The translations under genes and the position numbers were made by a program. This document shows, in pieces, positions 39,501 through 46,183 of a stretch of DNA of 64,000 bases. Origin of the DNA: Gemmatimonadota bacterium (GTDB taxonomy: Bacteria; Gemmatimonadota; Gemmatimonadetes; Palauibacterales; Palauibacteraceae); contig OY762926.1 of the NCBI GenBank assembly GCA_963666735.1, positions 32,001 to 96,000 on the forward strand, given 5' to 3'. Every line of letters starts with the position of its first letter. Within the stretch, counting starts at the first letter, position 1. Under the pieces are notes generated by a model. The model had not been told where the DNA came from. It made no database searches and was given only the letters and a program-made list of their open reading frames with translations.

Positions 39501-40030
39501 GAGGCCAGATCGCGCGGCGGAAGGTCCGTGGCGCCGAGGAGACGGAACTCCTCCAGCACCGCCTTCAGATAACGGCGTAGGTGTGCGTCTTCGCGCAGGA
39601 TGAGCTTCAAGGGAAGTCCACCCTCGCACATGATGGTCACCAAGAAACCCTTGGCCGGGCCGAATCGGTAGATCGTGCGGCGCCACCCGAGGAGCCCGCG
39701 GGTGACGACATCTTTGAGCACATGGTACTGGCCGCCTGAGGGAGCGAATTCGGGCGTTCCAAGCGCGGCAAGAAGCGGTTCCCATTTCCATGGCCCGCCA
39801 TCGTAGTTTCGATGCCACCACTCGGAAGCCCACAAGCAGAAGGCCCTCGCCGCATCCATCGAGATAGGACCCTGCCCGAACGCTTTCTGGCGGAGCTCCC
39901 AATCGAGCACGCGTCCCAGGTCGGCTAACTCTCCGGCGCGGATACGGTATCGGTACAGAGGTCGACCGTCTGCCCCGGAGAGGTCGCGCGCGGCAAAGAA
40001 GTCCTCGAGGAAGACCTTGGCTGTCTTCAT
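36509..40030 (-). CDS. druH: DruH-like (STY4851/ECs_5259-type) protein
   Basis: DGRPLYRY, FCLWASEWW.R.Y.GG.W.W, EGGLP motifs; about 1170 aa directly upstream of DruE-like helicase. Confidence 0.75.
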   Translation of the reverse strand: MKTAKVFLEDFFAARDLSGADGRPLYRYRIRAGELADLGRVLDWELRQKAFGQGPISMDAARAFCLWASEWWHRNYDGGPWKWEPLLAALGTPEFAPSGGQYHVLKDVVTRGLLGWRRTIYRFGPAKGFLVTIMCEGGLPLKLILREDAHLRRYLKAVLEEFRLLGATDLPPRDLASGPRKLLPAAWRRDVTYELAGELIETIWRLQAELSNGDTPVPELDRKRPDWRNELPLRVTDEVATVLLDGLIEDAIEVARRARSHVRWNLCLVPVADGDWELRGSFDMPATISREGLQVLFGFESPDEVPSRLHLGVQTERRTFRALALVTEAGLDGEDVYRVEALPAAHALQTEDLTGPRKLIARTYDPEYCTDRFPGAAALGQLAWAFEPMEPTDPPRSTCRLVGQGTVRVRAPWALLAVEAGASITSDEGSVEPVGSVRNVGSRRVYRVRGKATITEADDSRVIVETGASVDTDDFEYLLTGTTKRFGDAVIVFLGGPAVYKRREGEFVERVPERHLEWRSSAPDGRWVAYSCAAVASGAIVGEGRLRYITNGIVHHSISICVLPPGADIEIRPSSDPACGDIRFIRFGDVVAAVPETPGLHAVASPDRDGFGLQLRASGEPPRDVRLVVDWSEGGRMMPTLPFPARRAAFLSADGGRLPDGARVTEGSLAGVRAEVIAPGRAEFVLWGEGRGSVGGRDDSTSRPDVFTREIPRVSYGHHALDLGQVGEDIAERLEFADYLDSSVRLRIANRGSGATLPDADVLVTRFDLAFRTQETDPNRFVMLDARSQEQASSEDLTSLAVEVLALLEPDQDPIRLQPSSEHTWRLPPDLRPGPYLICGRQGDQQRVSPLPLNIPLPNETVAGTPSKDPITVAQAYAAAFAKDQAFGDQPFRSVVRALATDPGHEDWPLVFRYLGLESFPLMVFPLLRALARDSNACAMAAAHAGAADFSLLWERMETFPFAWWQLPVQGWERAFCVYAEHWQNELEEVDDTDLACDILDGEMDRSLDRVKVKLGGLAPAFGFLNGRTTGRLIPPDSRRIVNPAILDALFGDYVEQLRGCPSFYSEQAGPPDLPGVQEEIERTQTAHLWSARLFRTTDDTAMMASRHASFVYAPALTAVLVVAEDAVEQDLARRIRGARSGHAGWFDRTLELAERIAFGLREADRIQGHLEE

Positions 40031-40031
40031 C

Positions 40032-40460
40032 TTAGTCCAATACGGCTGCGGACAGCTTGCCTTGAGCGCGAAGAAACGCCATGCAAAACTGTGCCAGCTC
40101 ATCAACGGTCAAGTAACTCTTGCACATGTTCGTCCGCTGGCCGCAGATGGCGAAATCCGCTTTGCCGGTCGAGGGATCGATATGGTCGACTGTTGGTCGC
40201 AGAGCGAACCTGCGCGGGTCTCTTGGGTCGTAGATAACGACCAAGAGCGACCAGTCCAGCTCCTCACCTGTATGAGAGTCGTATCCGCCCGACTCCAGTA
40301 CTGCATCGTGGATATCGCTGATGTAGCCGGACACGCTCGTGTCGGGGAATCGCTTCCGATCCTCTACGACGTGTGATTTGGCTCGGCGCTCGAGCCATCC
40401 GTTGTAGTCATCATGGGATACCACGCCTTCCAGGAACGTCGGCAGCACCTGCCTGGCCAT
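40032..40460 (-). CDS. Small HNH-like endonuclease
   Basis: TGEELDW...RPTVDHIDP...ICGQRTNMCK; stop lies 1 nt before the druH ATG; ggag RBS. Confidence 0.65.
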   Translation of the reverse strand: MARQVLPTFLEGVVSHDDYNGWLERRAKSHVVEDRKRFPDTSVSGYISDIHDAVLESGGYDSHTGEELDWSLLVVIYDPRDPRRFALRPTVDHIDPSTGKADFAICGQRTNMCKSYLTVDELAQFCMAFLRAQGKLSAAVLD

Positions 40461-40634
40461 TTTCGTTCTCCTTACGGCGGCTCTTGGTGACCGCACTCGT
40501 CGACTCCTGCAAGGGCTCGTTCACCGGGAGCAGCGAGTAGTCTGGGGAAGACCTTCGCTCAAGAACGTTGAAGGCGCCGACGCTAAAGGCAACATCCGCA
40601 TCGATCTCCCCGTTCGTCGCGTCGTCACGACATG

Positions 40635-41972
40635 TTAAACGCCGATGTCCCGGCCGGTCTCCGTCACGCGCTCCCAGAACCTGAGGTGCGCCTGGTGGCC
40701 GCGGCCCGTCACGTCCGGGCGCCCGACCGGCTGGTCGGCCACCGGGATGTGGTTCTCCAGCGTGGCCCGGATGTGGTCCCGGCTCACCACGATCAGTCCG
40801 GACCGGTGGCGAGAGATCATCACGCACAGGCGGCCCGTCTCGAGGTCGAACGATGAGGGGGCCGTGACGCCGGACAGGGGGTGGACGACGATCATGAGTT
40901 TGCGCTCCAGGCCCTGCCACCGCTCGGGCGTGTCGGCGACCACGTCGGCCCGCAGCGCGGAGGGGAGCGCCTGCTGGATGGCGGTGTTCATCACGCGGTG
41001 CGTCGCGGCGAGTCCGATGTCGCGGGGACGAAGCGGCCCTTCCTCGCCGTCGTCGCCGTCCACCACACAGGCGCCTCGCTCAAGCACGCGCGCGGCCGTC
41101 TCGGCGGCCAGGACCGCGATCTCCTCGTCAAGCTCCAGCGGGGGCCCCTCGGCCGGCGTCGGCATCGTGAGGGCCACCACGGATCCGGAGCCGAAGAGGT
41201 CGAGGGCGGGGTCCACACGCGATTGCCGGCCCTCGGCGGGCGGAACCCGGACGTAGCGGTCGCCCGGGCTCGCCCACGCTGCGAACTCGAAATCATAGAA
41301 CGGACGGACGAGTTCGACGGAGTCGTGGGGGAGCCGCCGGCACGCGGGCAACTCGAGTTGGAGCCGCGGAGGGTGGGGGTGGGCGAGGATGACCTCCGGC
41401 GCCGGATGATGCGGCGCGCGGGACGATGTCTCCCACCGCTGCGCCGGGATCGGAACGACGGGCGGAATCTGTCCCGGGTCTCCGATGAGGACGAAGCGCG
41501 GCGCGACCTTCGAGCAGAGCATTAAGTCCGCCCACGCCATCTGCCACGCTTCGTCGACGAACAGAACGTCATACGCGTGCTCGAGTTCCGTCAGCGTCCA
41601 CTTGGCGACCGTCGCGACGACGATGCATGGTCCCCGCGGGAGGGCGCGCTTGTGGTTCGCCCAGGACACGGTGTCGCCGAGATCCACCGCGCTTCGGCCG
41701 GCGGCGGCGAACCGGGTGACGCCGAGGTGGGGATACTGGGCGTTCAGTCTGCGGCAGATATCGTCGGCCTGGCTGTTGGTCTGCGCCCCCACGGCGACGC
41801 GCAGCCGTTTCCCGCGCGCGTGCGCCACGCCGCGAAGGAGGAGGAACGTCTTCCCGGATCCGGGGGGCGCCCTGACCACGACGAGCCCCGTGTCCGCATC
41901 GATGGCGCCGTTGAGACGCGTCTCGACGAGAGACGATTTCGCGGAGACCTGCGCCCTGTTCCGCGAATTCAC
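40635..41972 (-). CDS. Minimal SF1B (Upf1/Dna2-like) helicase
   Basis: APPGSGKT, QTNSQADD, VDEAWQ, IGDPGQIPP, TPERWQGLE, RLCVMISRHR. Confidence 0.88.
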   Translation of the reverse strand: MNSRNRAQVSAKSSLVETRLNGAIDADTGLVVVRAPPGSGKTFLLLRGVAHARGKRLRVAVGAQTNSQADDICRRLNAQYPHLGVTRFAAAGRSAVDLGDTVSWANHKRALPRGPCIVVATVAKWTLTELEHAYDVLFVDEAWQMAWADLMLCSKVAPRFVLIGDPGQIPPVVPIPAQRWETSSRAPHHPAPEVILAHPHPPRLQLELPACRRLPHDSVELVRPFYDFEFAAWASPGDRYVRVPPAEGRQSRVDPALDLFGSGSVVALTMPTPAEGPPLELDEEIAVLAAETAARVLERGACVVDGDDGEEGPLRPRDIGLAATHRVMNTAIQQALPSALRADVVADTPERWQGLERKLMIVVHPLSGVTAPSSFDLETGRLCVMISRHRSGLIVVSRDHIRATLENHIPVADQPVGRPDVTGRGHQAHLRFWERVTETGRDIGV

Positions 41973-43453
41973 AGGTCACCTTCGTCGAAGCCGTCGCCGG
42001 TCGGGTCGTCGTCGGGGCGTGCGTGCGTGAGCCAGCCGCCGGGCTCATCGTCGGACCAGATCAGGCTGCGCTTGCGTCGGCTCAGGTGATGGTTCGAACT
42101 CTCGACGAACCCGATCGCGCTCCCGACCGCCCTCATCGGATTCCGGCGGACTTCAATCTCGAACGTGCGGCGGCCGTCGGACTCGTCCCGGAACGCGAGG
42201 AGTGTCCCGCTGGACTGGGGCAAACCGATCACGCACACCCAGCTTCCCGCCCTGAGCCGGAGCGGCCCCGGGTTCTCGTCCCTCACGGTCAACACCGTGC
42301 GCGCCCAGCGCCCCGAGCGCCGTTCCCCGACGCCGGTGACCGTCCCGCGAAAGCCATCGCCGCGCGCGATGGCCTCATCCTGAAGCTCCGGGTCATCGTG
42401 CAGTAGCGCCGATTCGACGACTGAGGCCGAGGCCAGGTGAGACATGTAGCGCGCTCCCGCCGCGGCCGGATCCCGGTCCGTCTCCGGCGACGGCGTGAAG
42501 GGCGGGGGATCGTCGCCGGCGGCATGCCCCCACTCGAGACGCGTGTGCTGGCGCCACTGCTCCGCCAGCGCTTCGCCCACGAGTTCGGCCACGCCCCGGT
42601 TCGTGCGCCGCCCGTCCGCGCGCAGAAGCGATATCGCCTGTGCCGTGAGCCGGTATCGGCGCCCGAGTTCCTCCTCCAGGACACGGGTGATCTCCGCCGC
42701 CTTCGCTCGCTCGCGACCCGCGTCCCCCTCGTTCCGCGCCTCATGCCAATCATCGAGCCGAGCCGCGATGCGGGTTCGTTCGATGGTGGGGTCCAGCGCC
42801 GTGGAGACCGCAAGCTCCTCCGCCTTGTGGGCCGCCTCGGGACGCTCGGCGGGAGCCAGATCCCGGTCGAGCCACGCGAGCAGGAAGCCCAGGTGTTCGA
42901 GCCTCGTGGACTGCGCGGGGAACGTGTACGACGTGCGAAGCGCTCCCGTGGCCGTCACCACATGCTGCTGCCCCGGCCTCTGCGCCTCCCGGAAGAGCCA
43001 GCCCGCCGTCCGTCCCAGCGGGTTCAGGATTGTCCCGGCCTCGGGTCCCTGGCGCGTAAACGTGTACGCGAAGGCGAGGTGATGGAGCATGTCCGTATGA
43101 CTCCCGTTCGGAAGCCACACCTGCCGAAGCGGCCCAAGCTCCTCCTCGTCGGCGGGCGGGAGGCCGGCGAAGCCGGGCGTCCGAAGGTGCCGCAGGAGCA
43201 CGGGCGCGAAGCTCGAACACATCCCGGCGACCAGGTCGCGGTTCCGGCCCTCCGGGACGGTGAGAATCTCGGGGTCCGCATCCGGCCGCCCGAAGGCGAT
43301 GCCCCACGGACGCGACTCTCCCCCCATGCGCACGAACGCGACAATCAGGAGATCCTCATCCCGCGCGATATGCAGTTGCCGGGTCGTGCCCCGCGGAAGC
43401 GGCCGCCCCTCCGAGAACGCGATCAGCCGCCGGACGACATCGCGCTCCCTCAC
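41969..43453 (-). CDS. Hypothetical protein (helical region plus C-terminal beta-rich domain), middle gene of the nuclease-helicase operon
   Basis: 494-aa ORF with GTGA overlaps at both ends. Confidence 0.75.
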   Translation of the reverse strand: MRERDVVRRLIAFSEGRPLPRGTTRQLHIARDEDLLIVAFVRMGGESRPWGIAFGRPDADPEILTVPEGRNRDLVAGMCSSFAPVLLRHLRTPGFAGLPPADEEELGPLRQVWLPNGSHTDMLHHLAFAYTFTRQGPEAGTILNPLGRTAGWLFREAQRPGQQHVVTATGALRTSYTFPAQSTRLEHLGFLLAWLDRDLAPAERPEAAHKAEELAVSTALDPTIERTRIAARLDDWHEARNEGDAGRERAKAAEITRVLEEELGRRYRLTAQAISLLRADGRRTNRGVAELVGEALAEQWRQHTRLEWGHAAGDDPPPFTPSPETDRDPAAAGARYMSHLASASVVESALLHDDPELQDEAIARGDGFRGTVTGVGERRSGRWARTVLTVRDENPGPLRLRAGSWVCVIGLPQSSGTLLAFRDESDGRRTFEIEVRRNPMRAVGSAIGFVESSNHHLSRRKRSLIWSDDEPGGWLTHARPDDDPTGDGFDEGDL

Positions 43454-44541
43454 CGCGTCGGCCCCCTCGACCCCGCCGCCCCCGCGCGCTGAAGCCTCCG
43501 CACCAGGTCCTTCTCACCGGCGGTTCGCGGGCCCCCGCCGTCCAGAAGGGCGACCGCCCGCCCGAGGTCCACGTCACCGAGAAAGCGGCGCACATCATCG
43601 CCGAGCACCGCGGGGTTTCCCTCCGCCAGGGCAGCGGCGTGACACTGGCTCGCTCGGTCGCAGAACCTGAGACAAGCCTCCGAATACTCCGTCTCCGCCC
43701 GCATCACGGCCTCCACGGGATCGTCGTCGACCGGCATGAAGGGCGGCAGTCCGCGGGCCGCGGCCTCCAGAAGTTCAAAGCCCCGCCTCGCCCGCTCCGC
43801 CTGGTAGTGGAAGTCCTCCTCCGGGCGCACCGACGGGAAGTTGGAGCCCGGCCGCGTCAGAACGAGGAACCCCTGCCGCCGCAACTTGACGCGTTCCCCG
43901 CATCCGAGTTCGGCCAGGACGAGTTCGAGCGCGTGGAGGTAGAGGCCCGCCTGCGCGCGGGCGACCGCCAGCTTGTGCGGGTCGGTATGTCCCCCGCGAT
44001 CCGCGTACGTCTTGATCTCACCCACCATGAGTTCCGGGCGTCCCCGGTCGTAGCGAACGGCCAGGACGTCCAGGATGAGCACGGCCTCGGGCAGCATGAC
44101 GCCCTTCGGGATCCGAACCGTGGGACTGGCGATGATCGCGGGACGCGGGGCGGAGCGGGAATCGGCTTGGCCGGCCACCTCCCGGATCAGTGCCTTCGTC
44201 CGGGCAATCGCCTCCGGAAGGGAAGGGAGCGGCCCTCCGTTCATCCGGACACGCAGGTCGGCGAGTCCCTTCGCCCCCTCCGGGAGCACATCCTTCCGAA
44301 CGAGTTCCGCGAGAAGCCGGCCAGCCTCGTCGGCGAGCATCTGTCGCTCGAAGTTGTTCCCCCGCGTGAGCGCGAACACGGACTGCCCGAAACTGGGCCG
44401 GGAGCCGAGACGCCGCGCCACGTCGGCCATCGGGACGTTATGCACCGCGGAGAGGGTATTGGCCCGGCAGGCGGGGTTCTTCGCCCACTGCTCGAAGCGC
44501 GCGCGCGTGTTCCCCGTGACTGTCCCCGAACCGTTCTCCAA
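43450..44541 (-). CDS. RecB/Cas4-like PD-(D/E)xK nuclease with putative 4Fe-4S cysteines
   Basis: NPAC; RGNNFE; ILDVL; GEIKTY; QAGLY (QxxxY); C-terminal CLRFCDRASQC; TTG start after ggagg. Confidence 0.7.
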   Translation of the reverse strand: MENGSGTVTGNTRARFEQWAKNPACRANTLSAVHNVPMADVARRLGSRPSFGQSVFALTRGNNFERQMLADEAGRLLAELVRKDVLPEGAKGLADLRVRMNGGPLPSLPEAIARTKALIREVAGQADSRSAPRPAIIASPTVRIPKGVMLPEAVLILDVLAVRYDRGRPELMVGEIKTYADRGGHTDPHKLAVARAQAGLYLHALELVLAELGCGERVKLRRQGFLVLTRPGSNFPSVRPEEDFHYQAERARRGFELLEAAARGLPPFMPVDDDPVEAVMRAETEYSEACLRFCDRASQCHAAALAEGNPAVLGDDVRRFLGDVDLGRAVALLDGGGPRTAGEKDLVRRLQRAGAAGSRGPTR

Positions 44542-44736
44542 ACGACCTCCGTGTAAACGACACCGCGCGGCCACGCCGGGAGACCGTCTCGTCAACCGAA
44601 ATGAGTCGGTCTCACGCAGGGTGGGCGCGCCCGATCCTAATGCCCCAGTCGAAGCCCGGCGACCTCGAAGTCCCCTGCGGCCCGCGCCGTTCACCGTGGA
44701 GTTGACAGCGCTTCGAGTGTGTAGTATTTACGACAC

Positions 44737-45090
44737 ATGACACAGTTTGGAAGCACGGTTCGAAAGCTCCGGGAGCGGCTTCGGCAGGACGATCCCCGCT
44801 TCTCGCTGCGGCAGGTGGCGAAGCGGGTCGGGATCGAACCCGCGTACCTGAGCAAGATCGAGCGGGGTGACGTGGCGCCGCCCTCGGAGGCCACGACGGT
44901 GCGGCTGGCGCAGGAACTCGGCGTCGACCGGGACTGTCTTCTCGCGCTGGCGGGGAAGGTCTCCAGCGACCTCCAGGAGATCATCCGCAAACGGCCGGAA
45001 CTGTTCGCGGAGCTGATCCGCCAGCTCAAGGGGGCGCCGGAGGGCGCGATCCTGCGTGTCGTGCGGGAGGTGCGGGACGGGGAATGGTAA
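44737..45090 (+). CDS. XRE-family HTH regulator
   Basis: SLRQVAKRVGIEPAYLSKIERG; TTGACA at 44702. Confidence 0.9.
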   Translation: MTQFGSTVRKLRERLRQDDPRFSLRQVAKRVGIEPAYLSKIERGDVAPPSEATTVRLAQELGVDRDCLLALAGKVSSDLQEIIRKRPELFAELIRQLKGAPEGAILRVVREVRDGEW

Positions 45091-45121
45091 CGATGACGAG
45101 AGACACGAGGAGCGACGAGAG

Positions 45122-46183
45122 ATGATCAGCCTGGAGAACGACCGCCTGCACTTCCGGTTCCCCGAAGTCCACGAGAGCGCGCACTGCTCGGTCTCATTTC
45201 AACGCACGCTGCGCATCCCGGATGACGGGGCGCCACATTTGCTCCCGCCGGGCCTGGGCGGCTTCCCATTGCGACACGTCGACGACTACAAGTCCCGGCT
45301 GCCGGCCGACTGGCTTCGGCGCGGCGGCGTGCTCATGCCGATGCACCAGGCGGAGGCGATGTGGATCAGCTTCGGCTCCCGCTCCGGGGCTCCCGCTTAC
45401 CCCTTCGCCGTGAAGATCGCGACCGGCAAGGTGTGCGCCGTCAGCGGGGAAACGTGGACGGAGCATCTTAACCGGGACCCGCAGGACTACGTCGTACTCC
45501 CGCGCCAACCCTGGATCGATGGCTACTGCGTCGACAACGGGTTGATCCGGCAGTTCATCGCCATGCCGCTCGGAGAGGGCTACACGGTCGAGGAGCAGAT
45601 CACGGGCGCGGCCGAGCACGGGGGCATCCAGATCATCGCCTACCCCATGAAGGCCGAGCGCTACGAAGCGATCCTCGCCGCTCACAAGGCTCGACTCGCC
45701 GGTCTCGAAGTCAGGCGAGCCTCCGCTCCGAGCGTGTTCTCCGATCATGTGATCGCGTGTTCCTCGCCTTCGACCATCTACGAGCAATCGAGCATGGGCC
45801 TCGCGCCCGGCGGTCGCATGCGGCAGGAGATCTACGACGATCCCTACGATCTCGAAGCCTGGGATCAGCGCCCCGCGAGCCGGTGTTTCGTTACGATCGC
45901 CAATTCCGGGCAGTGGATCGCGGTCACCGGCGAGAAGCCCCCCACCACGCCGCCGACGGCGAAGCAGTACGCCGACGCCGGACTGCCGTGGTTCGACTAC
46001 TACGACGGGGATGCGACGGCCGTGGAGGGCGCGGAGAAGTTCGCAGACCTCGCGAGCGTGGCAGAGATCGGCGCGAAGAAGGGCGAGACGCCGCTGCCCG
46101 AGAACGAACCGCTCACCGAAACGCGCGTCGTCAAACGCGGACGTGCCGCCCTGCGGCAGGTCCGTGAGCCCAGCCCGGATTGA
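45122..46183 (+). CDS. Conserved hypothetical protein (FQRTLRIPDD family)
   Basis: FQRTLRIPDD..LPPGLG.FPL, PMHQAEAMW, QDYVV.P.QPWIDG, RQFIAMPLG.GYTVE.Q, GLPWFDYY. Confidence 0.75.
   Translation: MISLENDRLHFRFPEVHESAHCSVSFQRTLRIPDDGAPHLLPPGLGGFPLRHVDDYKSRLPADWLRRGGVLMPMHQAEAMWISFGSRSGAPAYPFAVKIATGKVCAVSGETWTEHLNRDPQDYVVLPRQPWIDGYCVDNGLIRQFIAMPLGEGYTVEEQITGAAEHGGIQIIAYPMKAERYEAILAAHKARLAGLEVRRASAPSVFSDHVIACSSPSTIYEQSSMGLAPGGRMRQEIYDDPYDLEAWDQRPASRCFVTIANSGQWIAVTGEKPPTTPPTAKQYADAGLPWFDYYDGDATAVEGAEKFADLASVAEIGAKKGETPLPENEPLTETRVVKRGRAALRQVREPSPD

What the first reader, a model, noticed from the sequence alone, without database searches (positions are those of the whole stretch)
40635..44541. 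Candidate new defence system: three-gene 'split Dna2/RecB' Fe-S nuclease + adaptor + SF1B helicase
Seen: three ORFs joined by GTGA start/stop overlaps, at the head of a co-oriented defence array. Gene A has RecB/Cas4 motifs (RGNNFE, D, EIK, QxxxY) with one N-terminal Cys (NPAC) and three C-terminal Cys (CxxxCxxxxxC). Gene C is a bare 445-aa Upf1/Dna2-type helicase core. Gene B has no motif I recognise and ends in a beta-rich segment. Known: the 1+3 Cys 'iron staple' is typical of AddB, Cas4 and Dna2; Dna2 and TM0106-like proteins fuse such a nuclease to an SF1B helicase through a stalk and beta-barrel. Inference: A+B+C assemble a Dna2-like nuclease-helicase, with B supplying the stalk/barrel, acting in anti-phage or anti-plasmid defence. 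I cannot match it to a named system.
Basis: partly seen in the sequence, partly recalled or inferred. Interest (0 to 1): 0.88.

Follow-up and report, generated by a model that had tools for sequence, protein, structure and literature searches.

The report
Three-part Dna2-like nuclease-helicase operon
Three overlapping genes most likely build one uncharacterised DNA-cutting motor, shaped like the repair enzyme Dna2 but split into a nuclease, a docking subunit and a motor; this copy and its mobile relatives sit among anti-phage genes, but nearly all Streptomyces keep a distant fixed copy, so a defence role is likely but unproven.

Summary
In detail: three minus-strand ORFs joined by GTGA overlaps, at the head of a Druantia III / Azaca / McrBC array. 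A folds as a Cas4/RecB-type nuclease with invariant catalytic residues and 1+3 cysteines. C is an intact SF1B RecA core. B does supply the stalk and beta-barrel, but its first ~300 residues adopt a DEDD-exonuclease fold lacking the canonical catalytic set. A is modelled to dock on that surface (score 0.75, best control 0.00). The domain order therefore matches COG2251/TM0106-type and Bad nuclease-helicases better than Dna2 itself. Order A-B-C held in 49 of 62 loci; the other 13 end at contig edges. Natural A+B and B+C fusions exist. No PADLOC, Pfam or NCBIfam family matches A or B. Contexts split three ways. Sporadic multi-phylum copies, including this one, have strong defence neighbours (19 of 24), as do accessory Streptomyces copies (7 of 8). 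A freshwater Acidimicrobiia clade and a core Streptomyces copy (114 of 121 genomes) sit among housekeeping genes. Best reading: a heterotrimeric 5'-3' ssDNA translocase-nuclease that destroys foreign DNA with free ends (about 0.55). New variant of a known kind; function untested.

The parts
43450..44541 (-). Gene A (363 aa): Cas4/RecB-family PD-(D/E)xK nuclease with 1+3 Cys iron-staple pattern (C25, C290, C294, C300); catalytic E65, D158, E175, K177, Q197, Y201; C-terminal helices 311-355 form part of the modelled B interface
   Evidence: pLDDT 91; Cas4 7mi4 Z 10.0, rmsd 4.4, 194 aligned
44546..44550 (-). GGAGG ribosome-binding site 4 nt before the TTG start of A
   Evidence: sequence; the 97%-identical relative P0124 has the same 363-aa length
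43450..43453 (-). GTGA overlap: stop of A, start of B (translational coupling inferred)
41969..43453 (-). Gene B (494 aa): adaptor subunit made of a DEDD-fold pseudo-exonuclease plus the SF1B stalk and 1B beta-barrel
   Evidence: (pLDDT 90)
42563..43363 (-). B residues ~31-297: RNase H-like DEDD/DnaQ exonuclease fold. No D-x-E on strand 1, and Arg266 at the inferred ExoIII Asp position; likely inactive. Forms most of the modelled docking surface for A
   Evidence: PolB exonuclease 4flt Z 9.7, rmsd 4.0, 182 aligned; MrfB 8un9 Z 8.4, rmsd 4.2, 171 aligned; the catalytic register is my inference from motifs and secondary structure
42041..42481 (-). B residues ~325-471: stalk helices and 1B beta-barrel of Upf1/Dna2-type SF1B helicases
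   Evidence: IGHMBP2 4b3g Z 9.3, rmsd 3.5, 121 aligned; SETX 8ftm Z 9.8, rmsd 6.9, 131; Dna2 5ean Z 8.2, rmsd 2.4, 99
41969..41972 (-). GTGA overlap: stop of B, start of C
40635..41972 (-). Gene C (445 aa): SF1B helicase RecA 1A+2A core with intact ATPase motifs
   Evidence: (AAA_11 E 4e-11)

Best explanation
A, B and C assemble into one Dna2/Bad-type machine (inferred; A-B contact modelled, B-C contact untested). C hydrolyses ATP and, completed by B's stalk and barrel, moves 5'-3' on single-stranded DNA (inferred from the SF1B family). B's catalytically degenerate DEDD-fold domain is a platform that holds the iron-sulphur nuclease A in front of the motor. A then cuts ssDNA threaded in from a free end or flap (by analogy to Dna2 and Bad). 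With no methylase or recognition subunit, specificity would be structural (free ends, flaps, ssDNA). In this genome the operon is accessory cargo of a defence island, and its most likely job is to destroy foreign DNA: phage or plasmid replication intermediates, or ends left by neighbouring cutters such as type III and I R-M, Wadjet, BREX, pPIWI-RE and Druantia. A distant lineage has been fixed in the Streptomyces chromosome and may do something else there.
For: Folds of A and B. Invariant catalytic residues in A and C across clades. Order A-B-C in 49 of 62 loci with 0 contradictions. Natural fusions: A+B in at least three mutually ~32-36% identical lineages (P0245, P0323, P0331) and B+C (P0367, P0377). 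A+B complex score 0.75 against a best control of 0.00; the mark was reached by 116 of 157 solved and 2 of 215 mismatched pairs; runs share at least 93% of contacts; partner pLDDT at least 80. Sporadic spread: 3 of 101 genomes of the own family, all one genus; 0 of 300 further genomes of the own phylum; 2 of 401 in another phylum. Strong defence neighbour in 19 of 24 multi-phylum loci against 2 of 10 random own-genome windows, and in 7 of 8 accessory Streptomyces copies. Next to Wadjet on 2 of 3 Streptomyces plasmids. The host has two AddAB-like pairs elsewhere. Bad, the tested bacterial analogue, neighbours a type III-like methyltransferase (PMC7430649, section 22).
Against: A distant but complete homologous operon is core in Streptomyces (114 of 121 genomes at 71% or more identity to the Streptomyces query). 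It sits at one syntenic housekeeping locus in 9 of 9 loci examined, with no PADLOC hit in 9 representative neighbours. 38 of the 62 loci are a freshwater Acidimicrobiia clade among housekeeping genes. The 19-of-24 count uses an E 1e-40 cut chosen after seeing the data (at 1e-10, 6 of 10 control windows also hit); the loci are related; and only pre-selected neighbours were scanned. Sitting in islands fits any mobile cargo. Fold Z-scores are moderate (8-10), and Foldseek found nothing at E 0.001 or better. The complex pass may partly reflect likeness to Dna2's nuclease-barrel packing.
Confidence: 0.55

Rival explanations
1. Same enzyme, but a host genome-maintenance role (5' flap, Okazaki fragment or broken-end processing). 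Mobile copies are passengers that collect in islands because those are insertion hot spots.
For: Core, syntenic copy with intact catalytic residues in Streptomyces. Housekeeping neighbours in the Acidimicrobiia clade, where a TM0106-family nuclease follows C in 29 of 29 loci with room. Dna2 itself is a repair enzyme (PMC4716839 passages). SbcCD lies divergently upstream on 2 of 3 Streptomyces plasmids.
Against: Very sporadic in the window's phylum and in another. The host has AddAB-like pairs. Accessory Streptomyces copies coexist with the core copy in 7 of 8 genomes and mostly flank defence systems.
Confidence: 0.25
2. The operon serves the mobile element itself (integrative element or plasmid): it processes ssDNA during transfer or replication, or competes with other elements, rather than defending the host against phage.
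For: Integrases, resolvases or transposases lie near L014, L051, L063, L092 and L132. Found on 3 Streptomyces plasmids, two of them linear records with the operon within 13 kb of an end.
Against: No match in 50,697 phage records. No relaxase or replication gene recurs next to it; the recurring partners are defence genes of many unrelated types.
Confidence: 0.12
3. An RNA-directed or abortive machine: the Upf1-like motor works on RNA or RNA-DNA hybrids, or B's DEDD fold is an active exonuclease with a rearranged site.
For: C's weak nearest profiles include IGHMBP2, Sen1 and Mokosh MkoA. B keeps conserved acids E46 (130 of 151), D/E121 (125 of 151) and D/E225 (151 of 151).
Against: A's structural neighbours are DNases (Cas4, Exo5, MGME1, RecE, AdnA, AddB). 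B's E46 and D121 lie in the modelled A interface, which explains their conservation without catalysis.
Confidence: 0.08

Closest known systems
COG2251 / TM0106-family RecB-like nucleases fused to an AAA_11/AAA_12 helicase (TIGR03491; example L107:2253-5672, 1140 aa)
   Same: Same domain order: PD-(D/E)xK nuclease, RNase H-like (PF13482-type) domain, stalk and barrel, tandem RecA domains (PMC3985635 passages). The B profile touches the example's barrel (residues 624-663, E 0.004 in a 4-protein search) and the C profile its helicase (738-1098, E 3e-20).
   Different: Split into three genes. A and B score below any TIGR03491 or PF13482 hit. A and B profiles against a TM0106 alignment give only 3.8% and 0.5% probability. 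B lacks the D-x-E motif that TM0106 proteins keep. The family itself is uncharacterised: a 'TM0106' paper search returned only unrelated titles.
Bad (bacterial DNA2-like, Geobacillus stearothermophilus; PMC7430649)
   Same: Fe-S RecB-family nuclease ahead of an SF1B helicase, with an extra central domain absent from DNA2; sporadic distribution; neighbours a type III-like methyltransferase (sections 14 and 22). Type III R-M genes lie beside 8 distinct A-B-C loci here (L009, L014, L033, L057, L063; L092; L129, L131), and a type III MTase beside L051.
   Different: Bad is one monomeric polypeptide. Whether its central domain is the DEDD fold seen in B was not tested (no sequence in hand; supplementary figures not visible). 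A-B-C has no fixed methylase partner.
Eukaryotic Dna2 (PDB 5EAN; PMC4716839)
   Same: [quoted passage not shown] 5EAN is A's best Foldseek row (E 0.002) and matches B's barrel (Z 8.2).
   Different: Dna2 has an N-terminal OB fold and no RNase H-like domain between nuclease and stalk (passages). It is a single chain, essential, and RPA-dependent.
Described SF1-helicase defence systems (Mokosh, Hhe, ProA, PLuB, Gabija, CoCoNuT CnuH)
   Same: Use SF1/SF1B motors; C gives weak partial hits to MkoA, MkoC, GajB, PLuB_AAA and Hhe.
   Different: Hits cover only short motif stretches, far under cut-off (PLuB 39 of 999 bits). None of their partner genes is part of the operon, and A and B hit nothing in PADLOC.

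Membership tests
Iron-staple RecB-family nucleases (AddB, Cas4, Dna2) | PD-(D/E)xK fold with RecB motifs (E, D, ExK, QxxxY) | tested here: met
Iron-staple RecB-family nucleases (AddB, Cas4, Dna2) | Four conserved Cys in a 1+3 pattern spanning the domain | tested here: met
   98 of 98; 62-63 of 65 in the wider set
Iron-staple RecB-family nucleases (AddB, Cas4, Dna2) | Bound Fe-S cluster and nuclease activity | not testable with these tools
   needs purified protein
Upf1/Dna2 branch of SF1B helicases | RecA 1A+2A with intact motifs, plus stalk and 1B barrel | tested here: met
   motifs in C (Walker A was used to select rows, so that motif is circular); stalk and barrel in B; met only across two genes
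Dna2 proper | Single chain OB-nuclease-stalk-barrel-helicase with no RNase H-like insertion | tested here: not met
   three genes; ~270-residue DEDD fold in B against the layout in PMC4716839
TM0106 / COG2251 (TIGR03491) | Score over the TIGR03491 cut-off or a PF13482 hit | tested here: not met
   no family hit for A or B; hhalign 3.8% and 0.5%
TM0106 / COG2251 (TIGR03491) | Domain order nuclease, RNase H-like, AAA tandem | tested here: met
DEDD 3'-5' exonucleases | DnaQ-like RNase H fold | tested here: met
   many independent DEDD rows at Z 8-9.7 over B 31-297
DEDD 3'-5' exonucleases | ExoI D-x-E, ExoII D and ExoIII D catalytic tetrad | tested here: inconclusive
   Strand 1 carries no Asp (F40, R42). 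R266 (137 of 151) sits at the inferred ExoIII Asp, while D/E121 is kept in 125 of 151. The register is inferred; no residue-level structural alignment was available.
Bad (Geobacillus) | Homologous central domain | not tested
   Bad sequence not in hand; supplementary figures not readable
Named anti-phage systems (PADLOC 2.0 2023; NCBIfam June 2026) | Component HMM hits for all genes | tested here: not met
   Streptomyces A' and B' also blank
Anti-phage systems in general | Protection against phage or plasmid | not testable with these tools
   needs plaque and conjugation assays

The most novel reading that the evidence does not exclude
This is an undescribed, ancient three-subunit nuclease-helicase in which a dead exonuclease has been repurposed as the socket that holds an iron-sulphur nuclease on an SF1B motor. 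It acts as a general 'finisher' that shreds foreign DNA opened by many unrelated defence systems (type III R-M, Wadjet, BREX, pPIWI-RE, Druantia), and one lineage has been domesticated into the core genome of Streptomyces. That would show an immune-to-housekeeping transition (or the reverse) in the Dna2 family and give a function to three anonymous core Streptomyces genes.
Probability: 0.3. Interest if true: 0.8.

Novelty: new variant of a known kind. Interest (0 to 1): 0.6.

Why it matters
It assigns folds and a testable mechanism to two protein families with no Pfam, NCBIfam or PADLOC model, and with them to a three-gene operon present in nearly every Streptomyces genome sampled. The physiological role of bacterial Dna2-like enzymes is an open question (PMC7430649 says so for Bad). 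This family offers paired natural cases, mobile island copies and a fixed core copy, sometimes in the same genome, and separable subunits that make nuclease, motor and adaptor easy to mutate one at a time. If the island copies protect, it is a new anti-phage or anti-plasmid module that recognises DNA structure rather than sequence or methylation.

Tried and rejected
Profile scans of A and B in PADLOC, Pfam and NCBIfam: nothing. PDB sequence searches with the A and B profiles: nothing significant. C's best PDB sequence hit, 9kwf_B, is only a motif-level match. Foldseek on both models: no E at or below 0.001; the assignments rest on VIA-align. ESM Atlas: B matched only unnamed clusters; A's named hits were under 0.9, so leads only. 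No A+B+C triple fusion among 663 B hits (150 shown) or 4 long A hits; that is weak evidence of absence. P0427 and P0357 look like frameshifted gene calls and are not counted as fusions. hhalign of A and B against the TM0106 alignment gave no significant match. No phage record matched A. No RNA holder was listed, which says nothing on expression. No sigma-70 promoter match in 40000-45100. The divergent HTH gene (44737-45090) is adjacent in the window and L002 only (3 kb or more away in L003), so it was rejected as a part. L126 proved to be the same locus as L039 and was not counted twice. The tree of C is a quick tree with long-branch warnings and is used only to delimit clades. Literature searches that found no description of this operon: TM0106; guessed S. 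coelicolor tags SCO2809-2814, recalled and unverified (62). The six Streptomyces systems of bioRxiv 2025.01.08.631966 do not fit by the passages read: rare, and helicase-bearing candidates were excluded. Domain contents of Ceres, Veles and Oshun are in a figure I could not see. DefenseFinder was not available.
Full report
Observation. The three ORFs are real and lie as described on the minus strand: A 43450-44541 (363 aa), B 41969-43453 (494 aa) and C 40635-41972 (445 aa), with GTGA overlaps at both junctions and GGAGG before A's TTG. The closest loci are from Candidatus Palauibacter (Gemmatimonadota), 78-91% identical in B. Downstream and co-oriented lie a 154-aa ORF, Druantia III (DruH3 E 3e-60, DruE3 E 0), Azaca and McrBC-like genes. 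A and B hit nothing in PADLOC, Pfam or NCBIfam; C has only weak SF1 hits.

Gene A. The model (pLDDT 91) aligns best to Cas4 (7mi4, Z 10.0, rmsd 4.4, 194 residues), then Exo5, MGME1, RecE, AdnA, AddB and Dna2. Foldseek's best row is Dna2 at E 0.002. E65, D158, E175, K177, Q197, Y201 and C25/C290/C294/C300 are invariant in 98 of 98 relatives. In a wider set of 65 that includes Streptomyces, the six catalytic residues are 65 of 65 and the cysteines 62-63 of 65. This is the iron-staple signature as described in PMC7430649 (section 14). A bound cluster is inferred, not shown.

Gene B. The model (pLDDT 90) has two parts. Residues ~31-297 match DEDD/DnaQ exonuclease domains (PolB 4flt Z 9.7, rmsd 4.0, 182; Pol alpha Z 9.4; MrfB Z 8.4; many more). 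These Z-scores are moderate, but many independent rows agree. Strand 1 has no D-x-E (F40, R42). By motif register, R266 (137 of 151) occupies the ExoIII Asp position, while an acid at 121 is kept in 125 of 151. I read this as a pseudo-exonuclease. The register is my inference, and a rearranged site is not excluded.

Gene C. The Walker B Glu, motif III, motif V and motif VI residues are invariant in 64 of 64 (rows were selected on Walker A). It is a RecA 1A+2A core lacking the stalk and barrel that B carries. In Dna2 the stalk, barrel and 1A/2A superimpose on IGHMBP2 and, with the nuclease, form a tunnel that needs a free ssDNA end (PMC4716839 passages).

One machine. In the 62 genome loci, A-B-C occurs in order on one strand in 49; in the other 13, B lies at a contig edge. 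Natural fusions exist: A+B in P0245 (with kin P0426 and P0070), P0323 and P0331, mutually 32-36% identical; B+C in P0367 and P0377. The A+B complex scored 0.75 against a best control of 0.00; that mark was reached by 116 of 157 solved and 2 of 215 mismatched pairs; runs share at least 93% of contacts; partner pLDDT is at least 80. The counts hold only roughly with my own alignments, and the pass may partly reflect likeness to Dna2. The interface on B includes 43-48, 70, 121-129, 179-184 and 219-230, that is, the vestigial exonuclease site and many of B's invariant residues, plus stalk and barrel residues. B-C contact was not modelled.

Closest architecture. Nuclease, RNase H-like domain and AAA tandem is the layout given for COG2251 (PMC3985635 passages). 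A 1140-aa TIGR03491 fusion (L107) is touched by the B profile at its barrel (E 0.004 in a 4-protein search) and by the C profile at its helicase (E 3e-20). However, A and B show no significant profile likeness to TM0106 proteins, so this works like that family but fails membership. Bad, the one tested bacterial analogue, is a monomeric Fe-S 5'-3' ssDNA motor and endonuclease. It has an unassigned central domain and unknown function, and lies next to a type III-like methyltransferase (PMC7430649 abstract and sections 14 and 22; supplementary figures not visible).

Distribution and context: three lifestyles. (1) Sporadic multi-phylum copies, including this one. B was found in 3 of 101 genomes of the own family, all one genus, 0 of 300 others in the phylum and 2 of 401 in a second phylum. 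I counted 24 loci: the window, L092 and 22, dropping L010 as a duplicate and L055 for lack of flank. Of these, 19 have a neighbour with a PADLOC hit at E 1e-40 or better, directly or through a tblastn-linked representative: Druantia, Azaca, HEC-05, type I/II/III R-M, Mrr-like, AbiE, PD-lambda-1. L006, L011, L012, L036 and L039 do not. Ten random 20-kb windows of the own genome give 2 of 10 at that cut, but 6 of 10 at 1e-10 (Fisher p 0.002). The cut was chosen after seeing the data, the loci are related, and I scanned a selection of neighbours rather than all, so p overstates. (2) A freshwater Acidimicrobiia clade, 38 of the 62 loci, found in 8 of 151 genomes of its family. Its neighbours are housekeeping genes; among 54 representatives PADLOC hit only RmuC and a Crp-like protein. 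A TM0106-family nuclease directly follows C in 29 of 29 loci with room. (3) Streptomyces (genus named). A distant but complete operon was found in 115 of 121 genomes, 114 of them at 71% or more identity to the Streptomyces query (a floor). It lies at one fixed locus between a histidine phosphatase/NsdA-like gene and an M6 protease/GGDEF-EAL gene in 9 of 9 loci, with no PADLOC hit among 9 representative neighbours. Eight genomes show a ~50%-identical copy with an extra ~290-aa upstream gene. Seven of those 8 flank BREX, pPIWI-RE, type III R-M or Wadjet, as do 2 of 3 plasmid copies.

How it most likely works. Shown: folds, conserved catalytic residues, gene linkage, fusions and neighbourhoods. 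Modelled: A-B docking. Inferred: a heterotrimer in which C plus B's stalk and barrel translocate 5'-3' on ssDNA, and A, seated on B's dead exonuclease, cuts ssDNA threaded from a free end. With no methylase or specificity subunit, it would read DNA structure. For this copy I favour destruction of foreign DNA (0.55), possibly downstream of other cutters, over host repair (0.25), service to the mobile element (0.12) or an RNA or active-exonuclease role (0.08). The host has two AddAB-like pairs for ordinary resection (below the TIGR02785 cut-off).

Novelty. I found no description of the operon in 9 literature searches of a library that lacks most subscription papers. Passages of bioRxiv 2025.01.08.631966, bioRxiv 2025.09.15.676423, PMC11090510 and PMC3424549 describe other systems. 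An earlier unchecked scan note (e1-5235069) reached a similar view from what appears to be the four-gene type; it is not independent support. The parts and their order are known from Dna2, Bad and COG2251. The three-way split, the pseudo-exonuclease socket and the island-versus-core duality are new. Verdict: new variant of a known kind, interest 0.6.

Noticed in passing
window 40032-40496 (-): 154-aa ORF between C and DruH with an HNH-like stretch (my reading, no Pfam hit); 78% identical copies at the same place in L002 and L004, so it probably travels with Druantia III.
   Followed up: partly
window 15796-36666 (-): The rest of the island: Druantia III, a 291-aa ORF (weak DUF4145), Azaca ZacABC, DUF3800, an IS3-type transposase and McrBC-like genes.
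   Followed up: partly
L043:12641-14482 (P0388) and 28 other Acidimicrobiia loci: A helicase-less TM0106-family nuclease that keeps its D-x-E motif follows C in 29 of 29 loci with room. It has the same domain order as A plus the N-terminal part of B and may be an alternative nuclease subunit.
   Followed up: partly
L095:9017-9862; L127-L134: A ~280-300-aa gene with no Pfam hit precedes A in all 8 accessory Streptomyces copies and 3 plasmid copies, but was not found at the core locus.
   Followed up: partly
L006, L008, L011, L012, L013, L033, L036, L062, L127: Schlafen group 3 (DUF2075-type) helicase genes recur next to the operon in varying orientation.
   Followed up: no
L095 and L097: On two linear Streptomyces plasmid records the operon lies within about 13 kb of an end, divergent from sbcCD; a link to linear-end handling is conceivable.
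   Followed up: no
L128, L129, L131: Accessory copies sit head-to-head with pPIWI-RE operons that carry an extra PD-(D/E)xK gene; the machine could feed them ssDNA fragments (speculative; these loci are kin).
   Followed up: no
L019, L026, L036, L041, L049, L052, L054, L056, L058: Records titled Bifidobacterium; those placed in the tree, except L036, fall inside the freshwater Acidimicrobiia clade, and they share its gene order, so the titles are probably mislabels.
   Followed up: no
window 44737-46183 (+): Divergent XRE-type HTH gene and a 375-aa gene with no family hit; adjacent to A only here and in L002.
   Followed up: partly
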